DNA of 64,000 nucleotides. Origin: Escherichia phage EP02SG. This document shows positions 28,986 through 35,645 of the stretch, piece by piece (the stretch's first letter is position 1; every line of letters starts with the position of its first letter). Below the pieces are notes generated by a model, which saw nothing but the letters and a program-made list of their open reading frames with translations, was not told the origin of the DNA and did not search any database. The position numbers and the translations under genes are program-made. The DNA is taken from sequence record PQ301181; one strand, written 5' to 3'.

Positions 28986-29085
28986 TGTATTTTTCCATAG
29001 GCATCATTATATTTTACTCATGTTTAAAAGATAAGACGATTATATACTAAGGGTTATACAGCATTTAAAAACTTTAAACAGGCTC

Positions 29086-29634
29086 TTAACGAGCCCATTT
29101 GATAATTTCTGTAATCAAATAATTACGTTCGCTTGCATTAAATCCTATAACTTTGTTAGCACCGTCATGATTAAGTAATTGATACGTTTGGATTTTGTTA
29201 TGAATTGCAAACTCTTCAAAATATGAAATGACTGTATTAAAACCGAATGAAGACAAAGTAATAAGGTCGTCTTCAAAACTTTCAGTCATTTCGTTACGTG
29301 TTAAAATAATTGTGAACACATCATGGTTTTGGCAAAGACGAACATAATCCTGTTCATAAACATCAAGAACCGAGTCCGCATCTTGTCGAATACGTCCATA
29401 AACCCAGTTACTAATATATCCACGGTCTAACAGATAAATCTTAGTAGGGTCTAAATAATTCAACATCGTTTCGAAACAACCAACTTCATTTCGAGACTTA
29501 ACATCGAAACGTCCATCAACTGTTCGTTTAGGGAAATCAATCTTTACATATCTTTCACTAATTTCCATTATGTCATTAATGAAAGTTGTTTTACCAGCAT
29601 TATCCGGGCCATCTACTAAAATAATTTTAGCCAT
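29086..29634 (-). CDS. P-loop kinase (nucleoside/nucleotide or sugar kinase-like)
   Basis: 182-aa track ORF; Walker A GPDNAGKTT at N-terminus; start within 2 nt of upstream ORF stop. Confidence 0.55.
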   Translation of the reverse strand: MAKIILVDGPDNAGKTTFINDIMEISERYVKIDFPKRTVDGRFDVKSRNEVGCFETMLNYLDPTKIYLLDRGYISNWVYGRIRQDADSVLDVYEQDYVRLCQNHDVFTIILTRNEMTESFEDDLITLSSFGFNTVISYFEEFAIHNKIQTYQLLNHDGANKVIGFNASERNYLITEIIKWAR

Positions 29635-29635
29635 T

Positions 29636-30535
29636 TTATTCCTCGATTACGACATCTTCATATTTAGGTATATTATACGGCGAAGAAATTAAAGCATTAA
29701 AGTAGATGAACTCGCCAAGACCTGGATGGAATACTTCTTCAGGATTTTCGAAATATTGAATCTTCGGACGTCCTTTAAGAATTTGATAGTACTCAGTTTT
29801 AGTTGGATTAAAAATTCGAATCAGCGCTTCTTCAGGATACTTATTTCTGTCGAAACTATTATTTGGATCAGTTATATAAAGCGGTTGACCTAATTGAATT
29901 GCGCATTCAACCACTTGTTCAAAACGATAGCATGGGTCACTAATTCGAAATGGATGAAAAATACCATCTAGATGAATAGGAGCCAAATCACCTACAAGAC
30001 GCTGCATGACGGAAGGACGTATAACTTTCTGTGTTACGATAATCTTATTACCATCTGCACCTGCGTTAACCAGCACTTCTTTTTGACGTTCATTCAACAC
30101 AGTAGTTTGAAGTGAACGATTAACAGACAACATGTCGGTTTTTAAGAATTCATCAATATAAAAACGTGGTTTATTAGGGTCTGCAGTGATATTGAAATTG
30201 AATTCTACGTCAAAAGCGCCATCATATCCAGTGATATCTGTGATTAGAAAATCACAATCATAATAAGCAATTAATGAATCAACCACAAATTCATTTTCAG
30301 ACCAGAAATATTTACGAGTGTTATACGCGTTATCTTTATACCATAATGGAACAAACTTAAATTCCGGAAAAAGACGTTCGCATTCTTTAATATCAGATGC
30401 ATTACGTGGATATGTAATCACATCACCTGGATTAGCACGGTGCAAATGAAGTTGGAAGTTGCCATCCTTAAGGATAGCATACTGACCAGTTTCATAAGAC
30501 CGCATACTCAAGATAGGTACACGGAAAATAGCCAT
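29636..30535 (-). CDS. hypothetical protein (299 aa) at the T4 beta-gt position
   Basis: Track ORF; start overlaps gp42 stop at 30535; no recognisable resemblance to T4 beta-glucosyltransferase. Confidence 0.5.
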   Translation of the reverse strand: MAIFRVPILSMRSYETGQYAILKDGNFQLHLHRANPGDVITYPRNASDIKECERLFPEFKFVPLWYKDNAYNTRKYFWSENEFVVDSLIAYYDCDFLITDITGYDGAFDVEFNFNITADPNKPRFYIDEFLKTDMLSVNRSLQTTVLNERQKEVLVNAGADGNKIIVTQKVIRPSVMQRLVGDLAPIHLDGIFHPFRISDPCYRFEQVVECAIQLGQPLYITDPNNSFDRNKYPEEALIRIFNPTKTEYYQILKGRPKIQYFENPEEVFHPGLGEFIYFNALISSPYNIPKYEDVVIEE

Positions 30536-31251
30536 TAGTCAAGGAATCCTTTAACATAATCAAAATCACGTTCAAACACATGGGCACTTACCATGGTATG
30601 AGTATAATCACCAACTTCTACACCACATTCATTAGCGATATAATGAAGTAATTTTCCTTGGAGATAAAAATCCAACTGCATAACAACAGCACAGTTCTGA
30701 GAACGCATATGACAGTGGGTATAAAGCTTACCATCACGAATATAATAAGTCACTGAGTCAGTACATGGATATTCAAGTGTTTCGTCCGAATCAAGCAAAG
30801 CCTGATCTGAACTTTCTAGAATTTGGAACACAACTCTTCGGGAGTTAGGCTTCTCTTTAAGTTCTTTTAGAAGAGCTGGTAATTGGGCCGCAATGCGAGG
30901 ACCATAGAAAGTGTTGAAGTTCGCCGGCAAAACATCTGATTTTGGTTTAGAAATAAATTTAGCGACATTAGGATATGCCTTAAACGCTTCTTCTGCGTTG
31001 GTACCACCAGAAATCATAAACTTCCAGAAGTCTTCGGCATATTCATAAGAGATGCGGTTAATACGTGGGTCGGTCATTTTGAATGATGATGGAGTGTCAA
31101 CAACTACTGTCATAGACCCAATTTCATTACAACGTCCAATACGAGAATCAGTTACGAATTCCGGGTTTTCTAAAATTTCACGATTGACTGCTTTAAATGC
31201 GGTTTGAAAATCTGCGGCTTTAATATATTTCATTGTGTTATGTTTTCCCAT
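30535..31251 (-). CDS. 42: dCMP hydroxymethylase gp42 (thymidylate synthase family)
   Basis: 238-aa track ORF; TS-fold block PCTDSVTYYIRDGKLYTHCHMRSQNCAVVMQLDFYLQGKLLHYIANECGVEVGDYTHTMVSAHVF; length and position match gene 42 rather than td. Confidence 0.8.
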   Translation of the reverse strand: MGKHNTMKYIKAADFQTAFKAVNREILENPEFVTDSRIGRCNEIGSMTVVVDTPSSFKMTDPRINRISYEYAEDFWKFMISGGTNAEEAFKAYPNVAKFISKPKSDVLPANFNTFYGPRIAAQLPALLKELKEKPNSRRVVFQILESSDQALLDSDETLEYPCTDSVTYYIRDGKLYTHCHMRSQNCAVVMQLDFYLQGKLLHYIANECGVEVGDYTHTMVSAHVFERDFDYVKGFLD

Positions 31252-31374: not shown

Positions 31375-31533
31375 GCGTAGTATTCTAGTTGAACAGGTTT
31401 CTTTAATCACTTTAGCCGCTTTAGTTTCAAACAGGCCCATAAGGGCCTTTTTAAGAATTTGTTCGTTGCTGTTAATTTTAATAGTCAAAATCTCTTCGTT
31501 AAGTTGGTGGTTAAAAGTTTTTCTAGAAATCAT
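31375..31533 (-). CDS. small hypothetical protein (about 52 aa)
   Basis: Hand-translated MISRKTFNHQLNEEIL...; ATGA overlap with stop of the 386-aa ORF; coordinates approximate. Confidence 0.25.
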
Positions 31534-32690
31534 TCTGGGTACCTCAAAGCGTCATCAGAGTTAGTTATATCAATAATAGATATAGAGTTTTCTGATAACC
31601 CATTTTTAGATAACTGACGTTTATAATATCTTTCACAATATGTACACGTCGTCCCACAGATTTCATTAGCACAATCGAAATCTGGATGTTTGAACCACCT
31701 TTTTTCTAAAAAGCCGTCTAACAAAGAGGTTTCAATATTTACCGTATGTGAAAACTCAGTCTCATTTTCAAGAGTGAAAATGGTCTCTAAAGGCTTCCAC
31801 AATTCCAACAAATTACCTTCAAACTTTTCAGAAGCGTAAGCTTCAAGAACTTTTAAAATGTAGTCGGTGCTACCTGTACGTCCTGAAACTTTAAATTGAG
31901 TGATACCAATATCATTATAAAGTTTCAAATCTTGAGGACGAACAAAACGAGTTCTCAACCAGTTAAATGGATCTGTATCACGAGCTTTAATACAGTGTTG
32001 CATTGGATATCCATTTAAAGATTTGGCATCATCTACTGTAACATCGGTGCTATGGAAAATATAGCAAGAGTCACGATAGCTACAATGTGTTGTATACCCT
32101 TTACCAGCATTAGAACAGAACTCATTTACAAGAACTTCAAATATTATATTGTTCTTATTGCAAAACTCTGCTGCACGCTTCAGGAAAGAAACTGAACGGT
32201 TCTTATGAATTCCACAACAGACCTTTTTGATATTATACTGGTCATGCAAGTATTTGATTTGAGTTACAGCATCAACATGTAGAATTGTTGAAACTTCAAT
32301 CTCAATGTCTTTATTGACTTCACGAACAATTTCCATAACAACAGGGTTAGCGATAGTAATACGCCATACGCCTATTGACCAAAGATACTGAACATAATCC
32401 TGAATAGCTTTCTTCTTCCACTCAACTAGTTCTCTTTTTGAACCAGGATTTATCGTGTTGAGTGTATAGTTAAAGCAAATACCTAATTCGTTACAACGTT
32501 TAACGTAATCTTCTAACATCTTTTTGTCAACGTCAGGAAGCCTAAAATCAGGTCTGGCTGCTACAAAAGCCATTTCTCTTGTAGAGCCGTATACTTCGTT
32601 TATCAAGCTATTAGGATAAGTTTTATTGAGCTCTACGATTTTATCAAGAAGAGCTAAATCAAAATTCGTTCCGATTTTAAAAGTATTCAT
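31530..32690 (-). CDS. Cys-rich putative metalloenzyme (386 aa), possibly TIM-barrel/Fe-S (peptidase U32-like?)
   Basis: Track ORF; Cys clusters NEFCSNAGKGYTTHCSYRDSCYIF and CANEICGTTCTYCERYY; family assignment uncertain. Confidence 0.5.
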   Translation of the reverse strand: MNTFKIGTNFDLALLDKIVELNKTYPNSLINEVYGSTREMAFVAARPDFRLPDVDKKMLEDYVKRCNELGICFNYTLNTINPGSKRELVEWKKKAIQDYVQYLWSIGVWRITIANPVVMEIVREVNKDIEIEVSTILHVDAVTQIKYLHDQYNIKKVCCGIHKNRSVSFLKRAAEFCNKNNIIFEVLVNEFCSNAGKGYTTHCSYRDSCYIFHSTDVTVDDAKSLNGYPMQHCIKARDTDPFNWLRTRFVRPQDLKLYNDIGITQFKVSGRTGSTDYILKVLEAYASEKFEGNLLELWKPLETIFTLENETEFSHTVNIETSLLDGFLEKRWFKHPDFDCANEICGTTCTYCERYYKRQLSKNGLSENSISIIDITNSDDALRYPE

Positions 32691-32753: not shown

Positions 32754-33140
32754 TTATAGATTCGGTTTATATGATTTAAATGTTTCGAATTCGCCTTTAT
32801 TCATAAGAGCTTTGAATTCGTCAGGACGCATAGCTTTGTCGTCGATAATCCAATCATATACTGGTTTATGTGTTAGCAAATTATGGTACTTCAATCCAAT
32901 GTTTGCCAAGTTCTGAATCAGACTTGGGAGAATGTCAATTGCTATACGACCAGGACCGACTGACTTCATACCGCGAGCAGTGTAAAGCGTTATGGTATGC
33001 CCTGCATCATACAGGGCATTAATGGCAGACACCATTTCGACGTCTGGTTTGAAGTTCACGTAATCACGATTGTTATTCCACTCTGTTATACAATCATCGA
33101 CATCAAAACAAAGATTAAGCATGTTTTCTACACGGTGCAT
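32754..33140 (-). CDS. HAD-superfamily sugar-phosphate phosphatase (KdsC-like)
   Basis: Track ORF 32754..33155 trimmed to MHRVEN (TAATG overlap with upstream stop); HAD motif I FDVDDCIT, motif II TLYTARG, motif IV WIIDDK. Confidence 0.55.
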   Translation of the reverse strand: MHRVENMLNLCFDVDDCITEWNNNRDYVNFKPDVEMVSAINALYDAGHTITLYTARGMKSVGPGRIAIDILPSLIQNLANIGLKYHNLLTHKPVYDWIIDDKAMRPDEFKALMNKGEFETFKSYKPNL

Positions 33141-34828
33141 TAGATTCGTTCCCATTGATGAGTGATATCGCCACCGATTGGACGATAAGAAACACCAGTT
33201 TCTTTATCAGTTAGTACCCATTTACCAGGATTTTTTGTAATCAGAGTAGCCGTTACAGGTTCTGCTACATCATAACTAATAGTGCCGTCCTGAAGTACAC
33301 GGCCCATGTTACGTAATTGCTTAGTCAGAAGTTCCATACCTTTATAATATGCGGCTACCGCTTTAAGTGGATTATTCTTGAAATAACCACCTAATGCAAT
33401 CCAGATAATTGCCACTGCCAAATGATGATACTCGTTAAACGAACTCATCTTTCCATATTTGTAAACTAACGGATTGATGTTAATAGTCACATTACAAGTT
33501 GTTTCATCAATAGTAAACTGTCCCCAAGTCGGATTAGCGTTGAATTCATCATAACCTGAAACAGCGTAAAGCACTTTAGCTTCATCATACAATTTTGGCC
33601 CATAAATCTTGGTTTCACCAAAATATCCACGAGGGTCGATAAACTTGACTTCACCATTATCAGTAATCATAGTATTACTGAAGTTCGGGTCACCATGAAT
33701 AACAGAGTACTGTCCCTGAGAACGGTTATGATAACGAATAAGGTGTTCTAAAGCTTGTTTCAACATTGGCTTCAGACGCCCAATCTTAGTGTAGTTCACA
33801 TGTGTGATTTTACCAAATGAATCAATCAATGGTTGAATACTTTCACAACGATCAATAACTTTAGTATAGAATTCTTTAGTGAAATCACGACGAACAGTTT
33901 CAGGACTTACAAAATAAGTGTCTGTGCTGAATTTCAGTGCATCTAAAATTGCATCAATAATTTGTGGACGAGCAAGACTTGATTTGGATTTAATATATTC
34001 AAATGCTGGCTTACCTTTAATACGTTCCATAATAAAGTGGCCGCCAGGATGATAACTTACAATCCGTGGAACTGAATCTGATTTAACTTTCTTATACCAA
34101 TTGACTTCATCTTTTTGAAGTGCAACGCCCTGTTCTGTTAAAGCAATCTTTGTTACCGTTTCTTCGCCAATTTCAACTGCATTAAAACTACGATTAAGTT
34201 CACGAACTTCATGAGCTTTTTCAAGTTTAGGCATATCACCAAGATCGATGATATTCATAAGCTCTGATTTATTGAATGCGCTGCCGTAAAGGAATTCTAC
34301 GAAATCACGTCCTTTGCAGTATTCATGAATTTCCTCATCAGTAGAACCCATATAGAATTCCCAGTCTTTGAACTGATAAATTCCTACAACATTACCACCT
34401 GTTGAACCTACATTAGTGATATTTTCACCGTCGAAATTATATCGACATTCGTCACCCTTAACATAGATTGCGTTAACATTCCAAGACCACGAACCAAAAT
34501 CAGGAATAATATCACACCAGTTAACAATTACATTATGGCCGTCTAAATCTTTGTGCAATTTAGCAAGAGCATAAGCAGAACCATACGCTTCATCAACTGT
34601 ACGAATAGTCACATTGAACCCTTCTTGCTCACAATAAGCTCGAACAGTTTCAGCAAATTTTGAATGAACTACTACAATAATTTCATCTGCGCCAAGGTCA
34701 GAATAAATTGTATACAAATTGCTCAGAATAGTGTCTTGTTTATAGTTAACAAGCACCTTAGGAATATGATGCGTTATTGGATACAAACGAGTTGCCAGTC
34801 CAGCACCAAGAATAACAGCTTTTTTCAT
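33140..34828 (-). CDS. bifunctional sugar-1-phosphate nucleotidyltransferase / sugar kinase
   Basis: 562-aa track ORF; N-term MKKAVILGAGLATRLYPIT..PKVLV (RmlA/GalU-type NTP-transferase); C-term HGDPNFSNTMI...FIDPRG (APH/choline-kinase Brenner motif); TGAGGA SD. Confidence 0.65.
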   Translation of the reverse strand: MKKAVILGAGLATRLYPITHHIPKVLVNYKQDTILSNLYTIYSDLGADEIIVVVHSKFAETVRAYCEQEGFNVTIRTVDEAYGSAYALAKLHKDLDGHNVIVNWCDIIPDFGSWSWNVNAIYVKGDECRYNFDGENITNVGSTGGNVVGIYQFKDWEFYMGSTDEEIHEYCKGRDFVEFLYGSAFNKSELMNIIDLGDMPKLEKAHEVRELNRSFNAVEIGEETVTKIALTEQGVALQKDEVNWYKKVKSDSVPRIVSYHPGGHFIMERIKGKPAFEYIKSKSSLARPQIIDAILDALKFSTDTYFVSPETVRRDFTKEFYTKVIDRCESIQPLIDSFGKITHVNYTKIGRLKPMLKQALEHLIRYHNRSQGQYSVIHGDPNFSNTMITDNGEVKFIDPRGYFGETKIYGPKLYDEAKVLYAVSGYDEFNANPTWGQFTIDETTCNVTININPLVYKYGKMSSFNEYHHLAVAIIWIALGGYFKNNPLKAVAAYYKGMELLTKQLRNMGRVLQDGTISYDVAEPVTATLITKNPGKWVLTDKETGVSYRPIGGDITHQWERI

Positions 34829-34869: not shown

Positions 34870-35013
34870 CTAGTTAAAGCATTCATACTTTGCTTGTAGT
34901 CCAATCATAATCCATCCGATTATAAGAGTCGGAATCATTACTGGAGCCGTTAAGCTCCAGTAGATAGTCATGACAAGCATCAATAGTAAAAGTCCTATTG
35001 TTATTGCTTTCAT
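34870..35013 (-). CDS. small membrane protein (about 47 aa)
   Basis: Hand-translated MKAITIGLLLLMLVMTIYWSLTAPVMIPTLIIGWIMIGLQAKYECFN; ATGA overlap with stop of the SIS-domain gene. Confidence 0.3.
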   Translation of the reverse strand: MKAITIGLLLLMLVMTIYWSLTAPVMIPTLIIGWIMIGLQAKYECFN

Positions 35014-35645
35014 TGTTCGCCTCGTAACATGGCACCTAGTGCACCGCCGGGGTGGAACTTAAGGAAGTCATTAGAGGTAAATCCACGTTCAGACGAAAGG
35101 TTGATAGCAAACGTATCGATAAGCGCTAACAACAATGTAGTGGACATGGTCGGAGCCAGAGAATTCTCATCAACCTCTACTGCGATGCCTGTACAGAACG
35201 TATAATCAAAAAGAGCTTCGTATTCTTGTGGAATGTCCGGGTTACAATGCAACAGAATCTGTTTGACGTTCGGACGAATCATTTTAAGATGCTTAGCCAC
35301 GCCTATCATTTCTTCAGTTTTACCAGAACGACTAATATGAATCAACACATCATTAGGCGCAATGAATCCTGCATCACCGTGAGAATAATGCCCAGTGTTC
35401 AAGTACATACTCGGGATACCGAGTGAAGCAAATGTCTCAGAAGCTTTAGTTGCAATATTAGCATTCTTACCAACACCTGTAATAATTACTCGGCTTTCAT
35501 AATTACTAAGTCCTGGGCGTCGAAGAGTTTCTAGAATAGCATTATAACGAGCAGGGTTTTGACTAATTACTTTGGCCATAGCGGCCAAAGAAGAAGCTTG
35601 TTTTATGATTGCGTCAATAGCGATAGTAATAGGAGTAGTTTTCAT
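35010..35645 (-). CDS. SIS-domain sugar-phosphate isomerase, arabinose-5-phosphate isomerase (KdsD/GutQ/KpsF)-like
   Basis: 211-aa track ORF; ITGVGKNANIATKASETFASLGIPS...HGDAGFI...VLIHISRSGKTEE...LAPTMSTTLLLALIDTF...FHPGGALG match SIS/API signature; no CBS domains. Confidence 0.7.
   Translation of the reverse strand: MKTTPITIAIDAIIKQASSLAAMAKVISQNPARYNAILETLRRPGLSNYESRVIITGVGKNANIATKASETFASLGIPSMYLNTGHYSHGDAGFIAPNDVLIHISRSGKTEEMIGVAKHLKMIRPNVKQILLHCNPDIPQEYEALFDYTFCTGIAVEVDENSLAPTMSTTLLLALIDTFAINLSSERGFTSNDFLKFHPGGALGAMLRGEQ

What the first reader, a model, noticed from the sequence alone, without database searches (positions are those of the whole stretch)
33140..34828. Fused nucleotidyltransferase-kinase, a one-protein salvage route from free sugar to NDP-sugar
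The N-terminus carries the G-x-G-x-x-R-L-x-P-x-T motif of sugar-1-phosphate nucleotidyltransferases (GAGLATRLYPIT...PKVLV). The C-terminal half carries the HGDxxxxN catalytic loop of APH/choline-kinase-like small-molecule kinases (HGDPNFSNTMI). Such fusions (LicA/LicC-like, fucokinase/GDP-fucose pyrophosphorylase-like) convert a free sugar to its NDP derivative. Its stop overlaps the start of the HAD phosphatase (TAATG), suggesting a coupled phosphatase-kinase-nucleotidyltransferase sequence.
Basis: partly seen in the sequence, partly recalled or inferred. Interest (0 to 1): 0.7.

Follow-up and report, generated by a model that had tools for sequence, protein, structure and literature searches.

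The report
Phage UDP-arabinofuranose synthesis enzyme (AfhE)
This gene encodes a two-domain enzyme that RB69-type phages use, together with the neighbouring isomerase and phosphatase, to make the activated arabinose they attach to the cytosines of their DNA; it is real, but 99% identical to an enzyme (AfhE of phage HY126) reported as biochemically characterised in 2026, so it is not new.

Summary
[quoted passage not shown] The N-terminal ~205 residues are a sugar-1-phosphate nucleotidyltransferase. Residues ~206-507 have a choline-kinase/APH-type small-molecule kinase fold with every catalytic residue conserved. The TAATG overlap with the downstream HAD phosphatase gene is present.

The protein is 558/562 identical to XAN60479.1 of phage HY126. 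From its position and architecture I take that protein to be AfhE. Lee et al. (NAR 2026), citing He et al. (Nat Chem Biol 2026), describe AfhE as a D-arabinose-5-phosphate kinase plus UDP-D-arabinose pyrophosphorylase. The downstream HAD is 100% identical to PDB 9iqw and corresponds to AfhF.

The "free-sugar salvage" reading and the phosphatase-first order are not. The reported route is ribulose-5-P -> arabinose-5-P (SIS isomerase) -> arabinofuranose-1,5-bisphosphate (kinase domain) -> arabinofuranose-1-P (HAD) -> UDP-arabinofuranose (nucleotidyltransferase domain). This is the logic of ADP/GDP-heptose synthesis, built from unrelated kinase and transferase families.

Comparative genomics here supports an obligatory phosphatase partner: 75 of 80 cellular loci and 57 of 80 viral loci carry one.

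Verdict: already known, low interest. By-products: the module is widespread in gut bacteria, archaea and giant viruses, where all four domains can be fused.

The parts
33140..34828 (-). Whole gene: orthologue of the HY126 protein taken to be AfhE (RB69 gp52:53), 562 aa plus stop. Bifunctional D-arabinose-5-phosphate 1-kinase / UDP-D-arabinofuranose pyrophosphorylase.
   Evidence: ORF. 558/562 identical to HY126 XAN60479.1. Residues 1-218 are 99% identical to RB69p053 and residues 219-562 are 95% identical to RB69p052. Full-length match to PHROG 4098, which has no assigned function. Function as described in PMC13326640.
34214..34828 (-). N-terminal sugar-1-phosphate nucleotidyltransferase domain (residues 1 to about 205). 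Signature GAGLATRLYPIT...PK lies at 34772..34807 and following. Invariant residues: G10, R14, T19, P23, K24, G83, W104, D106, R129, G149.
   Evidence: Pfam PF00483 E 9.7e-10. Foldseek best matches are MurU 4y7u (E 2.7e-9), GMPPB, RmlA and LicC. The family profile's best PDB hit is HddC, the heptose-1-P guanylyltransferase, E 2.3e-18 over positions 1-205. Invariant columns.
33308..34213 (-). Small-molecule kinase domain of the choline-kinase/APH fold (residues about 206-507). Catalytic loop HGDPNFSN lies at 33674..33697 and the Mg-binding IDPRG at 33626..33640. ATP-binding residues are K227 and E241.
33143..33307 (-). C-terminal tail of about 55 residues (508-562), specific to the phage branch. 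Consensus TKxPxKWxLxDxETGxxY...W. Function unknown.
   Evidence: Present and conserved in 24 of 36 aligned homologues; absent from the cellular and giant-virus homologues. Modelled as short beta strands with pLDDT about 78-89.
32754..33140 (-). Capless HAD phosphatase (128 aa from the ATG at 33140), corresponding to AfhF / RB69 gp51. Converts arabinofuranose-1,5-bisphosphate to arabinofuranose-1-P. Its start overlaps the upstream gene's stop (TAATG).
   Evidence: 100% identical over 128 residues to PDB 9iqw chain A. NCBIfam TIGR01689 capsule-biosynthesis phosphatase, E 4e-13. Overlap seen. Function as described in PMC13326640.
35010..35645 (-). SIS-domain D-arabinose-5-phosphate isomerase (KdsD/GutQ-like; RB69 gp55). 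Supplies arabinose-5-P from ribulose-5-P.
   Evidence: Pfam SIS E 1.7e-10. NCBIfam KpsF/GutQ E 2e-32 and KdsD E 1e-30. PHROG 5670.
34870..35013 (-). Small hydrophobic 47-aa ORF between the isomerase and the fusion gene. Its ATG overlaps the isomerase stop. Function unknown.
   Evidence: Annotated as a hypothetical protein at the same place in HY126. RB69p054 occupies the same position.
31530..32690 (-). Peptidase_U32-family protein (RB69 gp50). Part of the cluster; role not established.
   Evidence: Pfam PF01136 E 6e-11. PHROG 5757. Listed as 'sugar or heterocycle reductase' without a test in PMC13326640 Table 1. Co-occurs with distant NT-kinase genes.
30535..31251 (-). Thymidylate-synthase homologue, the 5-hydroxy-dCMP synthase (RB69 gp48). 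Makes the hydroxyl to which the arabinose is attached.
   Evidence: Pfam Thymidylat_synt E 2e-15. Near-identical to PDB 9iqc/9ir2/9iqu, E 8e-161. Function shown for RB69 gp48 in PMC13326640.
29636..30535 (-). Putative DNA arabinosyltransferase 1 (RB69 gp46:47), 299 aa. Consumer of the UDP-arabinofuranose.
   Evidence: Same position as RB69p046/047. PHROG 3891. No Pfam or PDB sequence hit. Assignment from PMC13326640 Table 1; not compared directly here.
29086..29634 (-). P-loop nucleotide (thymidylate-kinase-like) kinase (RB69 gp45). Last gene of the cluster.
   Evidence: PHROG 761 thymidylate kinase E 6e-45. Same position as RB69p045.
29076..29100 (-). Terminator-like hairpin (10-bp stem, T-rich tail) straddling the stop of the last cluster gene. 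Possible end of the transcription unit.
   Evidence: Pattern match only: the number of such sites in the region is at chance level.

Best explanation
The gene encodes the orthologue of phage HY126 AfhE, a bifunctional enzyme of the phage pathway that makes UDP-D-arabinofuranose. That nucleotide sugar is the donor for arabinosylating 5-hydroxycytosine in virion DNA.

Proposed route:
1. The upstream SIS isomerase converts host ribulose-5-phosphate to D-arabinose-5-phosphate.
2. The C-terminal choline-kinase/APH-fold domain uses ATP to phosphorylate the anomeric C1-OH. The product is arabinofuranose-1,5-bisphosphate.
3. The translationally coupled HAD phosphatase (AfhF) removes the 5-phosphate.
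4. The N-terminal nucleotidyltransferase domain condenses arabinofuranose-1-phosphate with UTP to give UDP-arabinofuranose and pyrophosphate.
5. The cluster's glycosyltransferases transfer the sugar to 5-hydroxycytosine in DNA.

Basis of each part:
- Shown here: ORF, domain folds, conserved catalytic residues, near-identity to the HY126 and RB69 proteins, and gene linkage.
- Taken from the literature: substrates and order of steps (He et al. 2026 as summarised by Lee et al. 2026).
- My inference: that XAN60479.1 is the protein called AfhE (from position and architecture), and the reason for the order of steps. With O5 phosphorylated, the pentose can only close as a furanose. Phosphorylating C1 before removing the 5-phosphate therefore fixes the furanose ring without a mutase.
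For: Identity to the HY126 and RB69 proteins
- 558/562 identity to HY126 XAN60479.1. None of the 4 differences falls on an invariant column.
[quoted passage not shown] It states that AfhF is a Mg-dependent phosphatase acting on the intermediate.
- The RB69 region is exactly syntenic. RB69p053 and RB69p052 are the same protein split at residue 218/219.
- The downstream HAD is 100% identical to PDB 9iqw. The ThyA homologue matches 9iqc/9ir2/9iqu.

Domain evidence
- Pfam NTP_transferase.
- AlphaFold full-length model with pLDDT 93.2 and pTM 0.90.
- Foldseek finds MurU, RmlA, GMPPB and LicC for the N-terminal domain.
- The catalytic residues of both domains are invariant.

Pathway logic
- The family profile's best solved relative is HddC of the GDP-heptose pathway, E 2e-18. 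That pathway has the same isomerase-kinase-phosphatase-transferase order.
- A small AfhF-like HAD lies directly downstream in 75 of 80 cellular loci and 35 of 80 viral loci. A different HAD is fused or adjacent in 23 further viral loci, one of which has both (57 of 80 in total).
- A SIS isomerase is adjacent or fused in 49 of 80 viral and 35 of 80 cellular loci.
- HAD-SIS-NT-kinase occurs as a single polypeptide (P0081, P0083, P0090).
- T4-like phages that lack their own SIS gene within 7 kb keep the kinase fusion and the HAD. This is consistent with use of host arabinose-5-P.

Product and importance
- The DNA sugar is D-arabinofuranose by NMR.
- The 54%-identical homologue TH1_060 is essential for Shewanella phage Thanatos. 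It did not activate xylose-1-P with any NTP.
Against: - I could not read the primary biochemical paper (He et al. 2026 is not held). Substrates, nucleotide specificity and order of steps rest on a secondary summary.
- The held text names AfhE and AfhF but gives no accession. My equation of XAN60479.1 with AfhE, and of PDB 9iqw with AfhF, rests on architecture, gene position and the deposit names.
- Table 1 of that same summary still lists the alternative order: HAD 'dephosphorylates Araf5p to Ara', kinase 'phosphorylates Ara to Araf1p'.
- No solved structure of AfhE exists in the PDB copy searched. Which residues would bind the 5-phosphate is unknown.
- The kinase domain falls below Pfam's curated cut-offs by sequence.
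- Nothing in my analysis alone distinguishes kinase-first from phosphatase-first.
Confidence: 0.9

Rival explanations
1. The HAD first dephosphorylates arabinose-5-P (or the cell supplies free D-arabinose). The kinase domain then phosphorylates free arabinose at C1, and the transferase domain makes the NDP-sugar. The fusion alone would then be a complete salvage pathway.
For: - The two domain families are those of known free-sugar or free-alcohol salvage pairs, AmgK/MurU and LicA/LicC (pairings from general knowledge).
- Several structural neighbours phosphorylate unphosphorylated sugars at C1: maltokinase, NahK and methylthioribose kinase.
- Table 1 of PMC13326640 still lists this order.
Against: - The text of the same paper, citing the biochemical reconstitution with HY126 proteins, gives arabinose-5-P as the kinase substrate and the bisphosphate as the phosphatase substrate.
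- A salvage pair needs no phosphatase. Yet a HAD is an almost obligatory neighbour or fusion partner, and a sugar-phosphate isomerase is a frequent one.
- Free D-arabinose is mostly pyranose in solution (general carbohydrate chemistry), whereas the product is furanose.
- D-arabinose is not a normal free metabolite of E. coli (general knowledge).
Confidence: 0.06
2. Same architecture but a different product. The enzyme activates another pentose or another nucleotide (for example CDP-, GDP- or dTDP-arabinose, or UDP-xylose), or a non-sugar alcohol as LicC/LicA do with choline.
For: - The nucleotide specificity of the transferase domain cannot be read from the sequence here. The nearest solved relatives use GTP (HddC, GMPPB), CTP (LicC), dTTP (RmlA) or UTP (MurU).
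- Thanatos DNA was reported to carry a (deoxy)pentose of uncertain identity.
Against: - The adjacent isomerase is a clear KdsD/GutQ-type arabinose-5-P isomerase.
- RB69-type DNA carries D-arabinofuranose.
- UDP-arabinofuranose is accepted by the related DLP3 transferases in vitro (Methods passage of PMC13326640).
- AfhE is reported as a UDP-D-arabinose pyrophosphorylase.
- TH1_060 gave no product with xylose-1-P and any NTP.
Confidence: 0.03
3. The N-terminal 'GT-A-like' domain is a glycosyltransferase that puts the sugar on DNA or on a nucleotide. This was suggested for RB69 ORF053c in database comments and for Thanatos TH1_060.
For: Conserved-domain annotation as glycosyltransferase family A superfamily. 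Nucleotidyltransferases and GT-A enzymes share a Rossmann-like fold.
Against: - The G-x-G-T-R...P-K pyrophosphorylase signature is present and invariant.
- All top sequence and structure matches are sugar-1-P nucleotidyltransferases, with no glycosyltransferases among them.
- TH1_060 showed no transfer to DNA, dCMP, dCTP or cytosine.
- Separate GT-B transferases are present in the cluster.
Confidence: 0.01

Closest known systems
AfhE of Escherichia phage HY126 (taken here to be XAN60479.1; He et al., Nat Chem Biol 2026, as summarised in PMC13326640)
   Same: 99% identical (558/562), same length, same neighbours (AfhF-type HAD downstream with overlapping stop/start, small ORF and SIS isomerase upstream), same phage genus. 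Reported as a D-arabinose-5-P kinase plus UDP-D-arabinose pyrophosphorylase.
   Different: Four conservative substitutions (I291V, G392C, T448S, T516S in the window-to-HY126 direction), none at an invariant position. No functional difference is expected.
RB69 gp52:53 (RB69p052 + RB69p053) and Acinetobacter phage DLP3 gp82
   Same: Same gene in a syntenic cluster. RB69p053 is residues 1-218 (99% identical) and RB69p052 is residues 219-562 (95% identical). Both were annotated computationally as nucleotidyltransferase plus kinase. Thomas et al. 2018 already flagged the gene as a UDP-arabinose candidate.
   Different: In the RB69 record the gene is split into two ORFs exactly at the domain boundary, which Lee et al. 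attribute to a sequencing error. In the window it is one intact ORF.
ADP-/GDP-heptose pathways: GmhA (SIS isomerase), HldE or HddA (kinase), GmhB (HAD phosphatase), HldE C-terminal domain or HddC (nucleotidyltransferase)
   Same: Same four-step logic: ketose-phosphate isomerase, anomeric kinase making a bisphosphate, HAD phosphatase removing the distal phosphate, nucleotidyltransferase. HldE is likewise a kinase/transferase fusion that catalyses steps 2 and 4. HddC is the closest solved relative of the N-terminal domain by profile, E 2e-18.
   Different: Pentose instead of heptose. The kinase has the choline-kinase/APH fold, not the ribokinase-type (HldE) or GHMP-type (HddA) fold, on general knowledge of those families; no such Pfam hits appeared. 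Domain order is transferase-kinase, the reverse of HldE. The HAD is a minimal 128-aa capless type rather than GmhB. It works like this system but is not a member of it.
AmgK/MurU (MurNAc recycling) and NahK-type anomeric sugar kinases
   Same: MurU is the top structural match of the N-terminal domain, 4y7u E 2.7e-9. NahK and maltokinase, which are APH-fold anomeric kinases, are among the matches of the C-terminal domain. The two enzyme families are paired in the same way, kinase then uridylyltransferase.
   Different: Those are true salvage pairs acting on unphosphorylated sugars, usually as separate proteins, and they need no phosphatase. Sequence identity is only 10-16%.
LicA/LicC
   Different: The LicA/LicC substrate is choline, not a sugar phosphate, and the nucleotide is CTP. 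No isomerase or phosphatase partners are involved.
   Same: A bifunctional kinase plus pyrophosphorylase that makes an NDP-sugar.
   Different: The FKP kinase is a GHMP-family enzyme acting on free fucose (general knowledge). No GHMP signal appeared. The resemblance is functional only.

Membership tests
AfhE-type phage arabinose-5-P kinase / UDP-arabinofuranose pyrophosphorylase | Orthology to the characterised HY126 protein | tested here: met
   558/562 identical over the full length to XAN60479.1. The locus is 98.3% identical at DNA level over 6.7 kb. That XAN60479.1 is the protein named AfhE is inferred from position and architecture.
AfhE-type phage arabinose-5-P kinase / UDP-arabinofuranose pyrophosphorylase | N-terminal nucleotidyltransferase plus C-terminal kinase in one polypeptide | tested here: met
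   Single 562-aa ORF. Both folds are modelled with pLDDT above 92 and matched to the expected families.
AfhE-type phage arabinose-5-P kinase / UDP-arabinofuranose pyrophosphorylase | Cluster context: AfhF-type HAD, arabinose-5-P isomerase, 5-hydroxy-dCMP synthase, DNA glycosyltransferase | tested here: met
   All are present and co-directional between gp43 and uvsX. The region is syntenic with RB69 and HY126.
AfhE-type phage arabinose-5-P kinase / UDP-arabinofuranose pyrophosphorylase | Enzymatic activities: arabinose-5-P to the 1,5-bisphosphate, and arabinofuranose-1-P plus UTP to UDP-arabinofuranose | not testable with these tools
   Known only from the literature summary for the near-identical protein.
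Sugar-1-phosphate nucleotidyltransferases (Pfam PF00483) | Score above Pfam's gathering cut-off, and the G-x-G-T-R-x(2)-P-x-T...P-K signature | tested here: met
   38.9 bits against a 21.2 cut-off. G10, R14, T19, P23 and K24 are invariant in 36 homologues.
Sugar-1-phosphate nucleotidyltransferases (Pfam PF00483) | Rossmann-like pyrophosphorylase fold | tested here: met
   Foldseek probability 1.00 to MurU, RmlA, GMPPB, GalU and LicC. Profile hit to HddC across the whole domain.
Choline-kinase/APH (eukaryotic-like) small-molecule kinases | Curated sequence model (Pfam APH, Fructosamin_kin, EcKL) above cut-off | tested here: not met
   APH 17.3 bits against 23.2; Fructosamin_kin 16.9 against 22.4; EcKL 16.1 against 22. 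No PDB sequence hit to this half. A 26%-identical cellular homologue does pass APH, 40 bits.
Choline-kinase/APH (eukaryotic-like) small-molecule kinases | Bilobal kinase fold with the small-molecule-kinase C-lobe | tested here: met
Choline-kinase/APH (eukaryotic-like) small-molecule kinases | Catalytic residues: beta-3 Lys, alpha-C Glu, H-x-D-x4-N loop, Mg-binding Asp | tested here: met
   K227, E241, H378, D380, N385 and D398 are invariant. Assignment of the first two to beta-3 and alpha-C is by position in the predicted secondary structure and was not checked on coordinates.
HldE/GmhB/GmhA ADP-heptose system | Ribokinase-type kinase domain and cytidylyltransferase-type adenylyltransferase domain | tested here: not met
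   No such Pfam or NCBIfam matches; the folds found are different. It shares the logic of this system but is not a member.
Fucokinase/GDP-fucose pyrophosphorylase (FKP) | GHMP-family kinase domain acting on a free sugar | tested here: not met

The most novel reading that the evidence does not exclude
The unit of nucleotidyltransferase-kinase fusion, mini-HAD and often a SIS isomerase is not a phage speciality. It may be a widespread and so far unannotated route to NDP-D-arabinofuranose, or a closely related NDP-pentose or ketose-derived sugar, used for surface glycans.

What I found:
- At least 441 tblastn-confirmed loci in species-representative genomes. They include Akkermansia, Gastranaerophilales, Elusimicrobia, Clostridia, Alistipes, Thermoplasmata and Micrarchaeota.
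- The AfhF-like HAD lies directly downstream in 75 of the best 80 loci.
- Glycosyltransferases flank the two loci I inspected for this.
- In giant-virus-like contigs, and in one eukaryotic transcriptome, all four activities are fused into a single polypeptide of about 900 aa.

For the window gene itself, the only non-excluded novelty is that the phage-specific C-terminal tail (residues 508-562) has a role of its own, for example docking AfhF to hand over the bisphosphate.

I could not check whether He et al. or Mahler et al. already describe the cellular and giant-virus distribution.
Probability: 0.3. Interest if true: 0.5.

Novelty: already known. Interest (0 to 1): 0.15.

Why it matters
The enzyme matters biologically. 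It supplies the unusual donor UDP-D-arabinofuranose, which lets RB69-type phages coat every cytosine with one to three arabinoses and so evade restriction and CRISPR nucleases. A 54%-identical homologue is essential for phage Thanatos. This was worked out and published in 2025-2026, and the window copy is 99% identical to the protein I take to be the characterised one. The finding therefore adds nothing new beyond correct recognition of the architecture.

The residual value is practical:
- Most public records still call this gene 'hypothetical protein', 'GlmU' or 'bifunctional protein', and call the HAD 'phosphoheptose isomerase'. These could be re-annotated.
- The by-product of this check may be worth a separate look: the same module is widespread in gut bacteria, archaea and giant viruses.

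Tried and rejected
- The primary papers (He et al. 2026; Mahler et al. 2025) are not held under DOI or PubMed id. A text search for AfhE/HY126 found only the NAR paper. [quoted passage not shown]
- The Foldseek search with the full-length model returned only nucleotidyltransferase hits. It was uninformative for the C-terminal half.
- phmmer with the phage HAD found almost no HAD in cellular loci, 2 of 80. BLASTP between the phage HAD and a cellular mini-HAD was not significant. Homology appeared only with an iterated profile.
- The sigma-70 promoter and terminator scan gave counts at chance level: 24 promoter-like sites against 27 expected, and 4 terminator-like sites against 4 expected. It is not suited to T4-type middle or late promoters. 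Only the hairpin after the last gene is mentioned, as a pattern match.
- No tRNA genes in the window.
- I could not inspect model coordinates. I could not test which conserved basic residues (R213, R327, R400, K418) might bind the 5-phosphate, or what the C-terminal tail contacts.
Full report
**1. What is in the sequence**

The window is a T4-type phage genome segment with nearly all genes on the minus strand and about 37% G+C. The 6.7 kb around the finding is 97-98% identical to many Escherichia and Shigella phages of the RB69 group (Mosigvirus). In 151 public records one place covers at least 80% of it.

It has a GAGGA ribosome-binding-like sequence 9 nt upstream.

The quoted peptides are present:
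- GAGLATRLYPIT at residues 8-19 and PKVLV at residues 23-27.
- HGDPNFSN at residues 378-385.

The stop TAA shares its last base with an ATG at 33140 (ATCTAATGCAC). That ATG is the annotated start of the next gene in phage HY126. It is also the first native residue of the identical crystallised protein in PDB 9iqw.

**2. Domain assignment, tested independently**

N-terminal half:
- It passes Pfam NTP_transferase, E 9.7e-10.
- It matches many sugar-1-phosphate nucleotidyltransferase models in NCBIfam, all far below their equivalog cut-offs.
- Its best single-sequence PDB hit is LicC, E 1.9e-5.

C-terminal half:
- It is weak by sequence. Pfam APH, Fructosamin_kin and EcKL all fall below their cut-offs, and there is no PDB sequence hit.

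I collected homologues and aligned 36 of them, spanning 25-73% identity. Invariant columns include the pyrophosphorylase residues G10, R14, T19, P23, K24 and D106. They also include the complete kinase set: K227, E241, H378, G379, D380, N385 and D398.

AlphaFold models from this alignment are confident. The full-length model has pLDDT 93.2 and pTM 0.90. The model of residues 205-562 has pLDDT 92.7.

Foldseek with the full-length model finds MurU, GMPPB, RmlA, GalU and LicC.

**3. What it is**

The protein is 558/562 identical to XAN60479.1 of Escherichia phage HY126. In the RB69 reference record the same gene is split into RB69p053 (residues 1-218, 99% identical) and RB69p052 (residues 219-562, 95% identical). 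Lee et al. attribute the split to a sequencing error.

Lee et al. (NAR 2026, PMC13326640) report the following:
- RB69-type DNA carries mono- and di-D-arabinofuranosyl-5-hydroxycytosine, not arabinosyl-hydroxymethylcytosine as first thought.
- The thymidylate-synthase homologue of the cluster makes 5-hydroxy-dCMP.

Citing He et al. (Nat Chem Biol 2026), they further state:
- AfhF, the HAD, is a Mg-dependent phosphatase that converts the 1,5-bisphosphate to arabinofuranose-1-phosphate.

The held text gives no accession for AfhE or AfhF. I equate XAN60479.1 with AfhE from its two-domain architecture and its position next to the HAD and the isomerase.

The neighbouring proteins in the window match solved structures. 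The HAD is 100% identical to 9iqw. The ThyA homologue matches 9iqc, 9ir2 and 9iqu. No structure of the fusion protein itself is in the PDB copy searched.

Thomas et al. 2018 had already singled out ORF53_52c and ORF055c as candidates for UDP-arabinose synthesis.

**4. How it most likely works**

The route is:
1. Ribulose-5-P is converted to arabinose-5-P by the SIS isomerase (35010..35645). This protein is clearly KdsD/GutQ-like.
2. Arabinose-5-P is phosphorylated at C1 by the kinase domain.
3. The 5-phosphate is removed by the HAD.
4. Uridylyl transfer by the N-terminal domain gives UDP-arabinofuranose.
5. The cluster's glycosyltransferases transfer the sugar to 5-hydroxycytosine DNA.

Steps 2-4 come from the literature summary. 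The rest is shown by homology here.

This is the logic of ADP- and GDP-heptose synthesis (GmhA, then HldE or HddA, then GmhB, then HldE or HddC). The closest solved relative of the N-terminal domain by profile search is HddC, E 2e-18 over the whole domain. The kinase, however, belongs to a different superfamily from HldE or HddA. This is an analogue of the heptose system, not a member of it.

My own inference for why the kinase comes first rests on ring chemistry. While O5 is phosphorylated the pentose can only close as a furanose. Phosphorylating C1 at that stage fixes the furanose ring that is found in the DNA without needing a mutase.

**5. Comparative genomics bearing on the free-sugar reading**

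A salvage pair needs only a kinase and a transferase. I asked whether a phosphatase partner is dispensable.

In 80 viral loci carrying a homologue:
- An AfhF-type mini-HAD is found in 35, nearly always directly downstream.
- A different HAD is fused or adjacent in 23. One locus has both, so 57 of 80 loci carry a HAD.
- A SIS isomerase is adjacent or fused in 49.

In the best 80 of at least 441 loci in bacterial and archaeal species genomes:
- An iterated profile finds a 120-135-aa HAD-like gene directly after the fusion gene, or after an intervening SIS gene, in 75.
- The same profile retrieves the phage AfhF proteins at E 1e-27 to 1e-43, so these proteins are homologous.
- A SIS gene is adjacent or fused in 35.

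Proteins of about 900-955 aa carry HAD, SIS, nucleotidyltransferase and kinase in one chain (P0081, P0083, P0090).

A T4-like subgroup (43-44% identity) keeps the fusion, the HAD, the ThyA homologue and the transferase but has no SIS gene within 7 kb. This fits use of host arabinose-5-P made by KdsD.

Together these results argue that the pathway starts from a sugar phosphate and always needs a phosphatase. They do not by themselves fix the order of the kinase and phosphatase steps. That rests on the published biochemistry.

**6.

The fusion, the fold families, the sugar and the coupling to the HAD are right.
- 'One-protein salvage from free sugar' and 'phosphatase-kinase-nucleotidyltransferase' are not right. 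That order was the field's earlier hypothesis and still appears in Table 1 of Lee et al..
- The FKP comparison is functional only. LicC/LicA and MurU/AmgK are the structurally related pairs.

**7. Novelty and score**

This is already known. The gene is a near-identical orthologue of an enzyme reported as experimentally characterised, in a cluster whose other members have crystal structures. Interest is low (0.15).

The main caveat is that I could not read He et al. directly. The identity of AfhE, its substrates and the order of steps rest on one secondary account.

**8. By-products**

- The module is widespread in gut-associated bacteria, archaea and giant-virus-like contigs. Glycosyltransferases flank the two cellular loci inspected for this.
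- The U32 'peptidase' of the cluster is very strongly conserved next to very distant fusion genes that have no ThyA homologue nearby. This links it to the sugar module rather than to base hydroxylation.
- The phage branch has a conserved C-terminal tail of about 55 aa with unknown role.
- Several public annotations are wrong or empty.

Noticed in passing
window 31530-32690 (-); also L067, L068, L070, L074, L076, L077, L083, L090: The Peptidase_U32-family protein of the cluster (RB69 gp50) has no established role. Its homologues score E 1e-108 to 1e-119 in loci where the NT-kinase is only 26-30% identical and no ThyA-like gene lies within 7 kb. This suggests a link to the sugar module rather than to cytosine hydroxylation. 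Other U32 proteins are RNA and ubiquinone hydroxylation factors; there is a weak UbiU hit.
   Followed up: partly
L086-L165 (for example L111 Akkermansia, L158 Pseudoflavonifractor sp. 524-17, L101 Alistipes finegoldii, L161 Thermoplasmata): A fusion of about 500 aa, homologous to the window protein at 26-30% identity and lacking the C-terminal tail, occurs in at least 441 loci of bacterial and archaeal species genomes. A 120-135-aa AfhF-like HAD lies directly downstream in 75 of the best 80, and a SIS isomerase is adjacent or fused in 35 of 80. Neighbours include GT4 and GT8 (L158) and a GT2-TupA ATP-grasp protein (L111). In L101 the neighbours are a serine recombinase and a UvrD-like helicase. 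An unannotated ORF of about 315 aa usually follows the HAD; these ORFs are weakly related to each other (E 1e-6).
   Followed up: partly
P0081, P0083, P0087, P0090, P0094, P0095; L002-L004; GVMAG loci L044-L078: Single polypeptides of about 900-955 aa fuse HAD, SIS, nucleotidyltransferase and kinase, so the whole pathway is in one chain. They lie on AT-rich contigs with XRN exonuclease, GT25 and many ORFans. Many of the viral loci are labelled giant-virus MAGs, and one protein comes from a eukaryotic transcriptome set. A 779-aa variant (P0104) carries a cupin-type C-terminal extension and sits next to an epimerase-HAD fusion (L005).
   Followed up: partly
window 33143-33307 (-): The last 55 or so residues of the protein form a conserved tail (TKxPxKWxLxDxETGxxY...W). 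It is found only in the phage branch, in 24 of 36 aligned homologues, and its function is unknown. It might mediate oligomerisation or contact with AfhF.
   Followed up: partly
window 34870-35013 (-): A 47-aa strongly hydrophobic ORF (MKAITIGLLLLMLVMTIYWSLTAPVMIPTLIIGWIMIGLQAKYECFN) sits between the isomerase and the fusion gene, with its ATG overlapping the isomerase stop. It is annotated in HY126, and RB69p054 occupies the same position. It is a possible small membrane protein inside a cytoplasmic sugar-nucleotide cluster.
   Followed up: no
L021, L022, L024-L028, L032, L037, L052: A T4-like phage group (genomes of about 170 kb, fusion protein 43-44% identical) has the NT-kinase, AfhF-like HAD, ThyA homologue, glycosyltransferase and P-loop kinase but no SIS isomerase within 7 kb. 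It presumably relies on host KdsD/GutQ for arabinose-5-P.
   Followed up: no
L087 (NZ_JPLA01000184.1) and L086 (CAVJPU010000002.1): A 385-bp contig in the Dyella japonica DSM 16301 assembly is 96% identical at protein level to this phage gene, which is probably phage contamination of the assembly. A 167-kb contig filed as 'bacterium isolate ... cleanbin' looks like a complete T4-like phage genome carrying the whole cluster.
   Followed up: no
public records matched; RB69 record L166: Annotations of the cluster are mostly empty or misleading. The fusion gene is called hypothetical protein, 'glmU bifunctional protein' or 'nucleotidyl transferase'. The HAD phosphatase is called 'phosphoheptose isomerase' (RefSeq RB69p051 and PHROG 1238). 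The 5-hydroxy-dCMP synthase is called thymidylate synthase or dCMP hydroxymethylase. In RB69 both the fusion gene and the glycosyltransferase are split into two ORFs.
   Followed up: yes
window 29076-29100 (-): A 10-bp-stem hairpin followed by a T-rich tract straddles the stop of the last cluster gene, before uvsX. It is a possible intrinsic terminator closing the arabinosylation gene block. The scan as a whole was at chance level.
   Followed up: no
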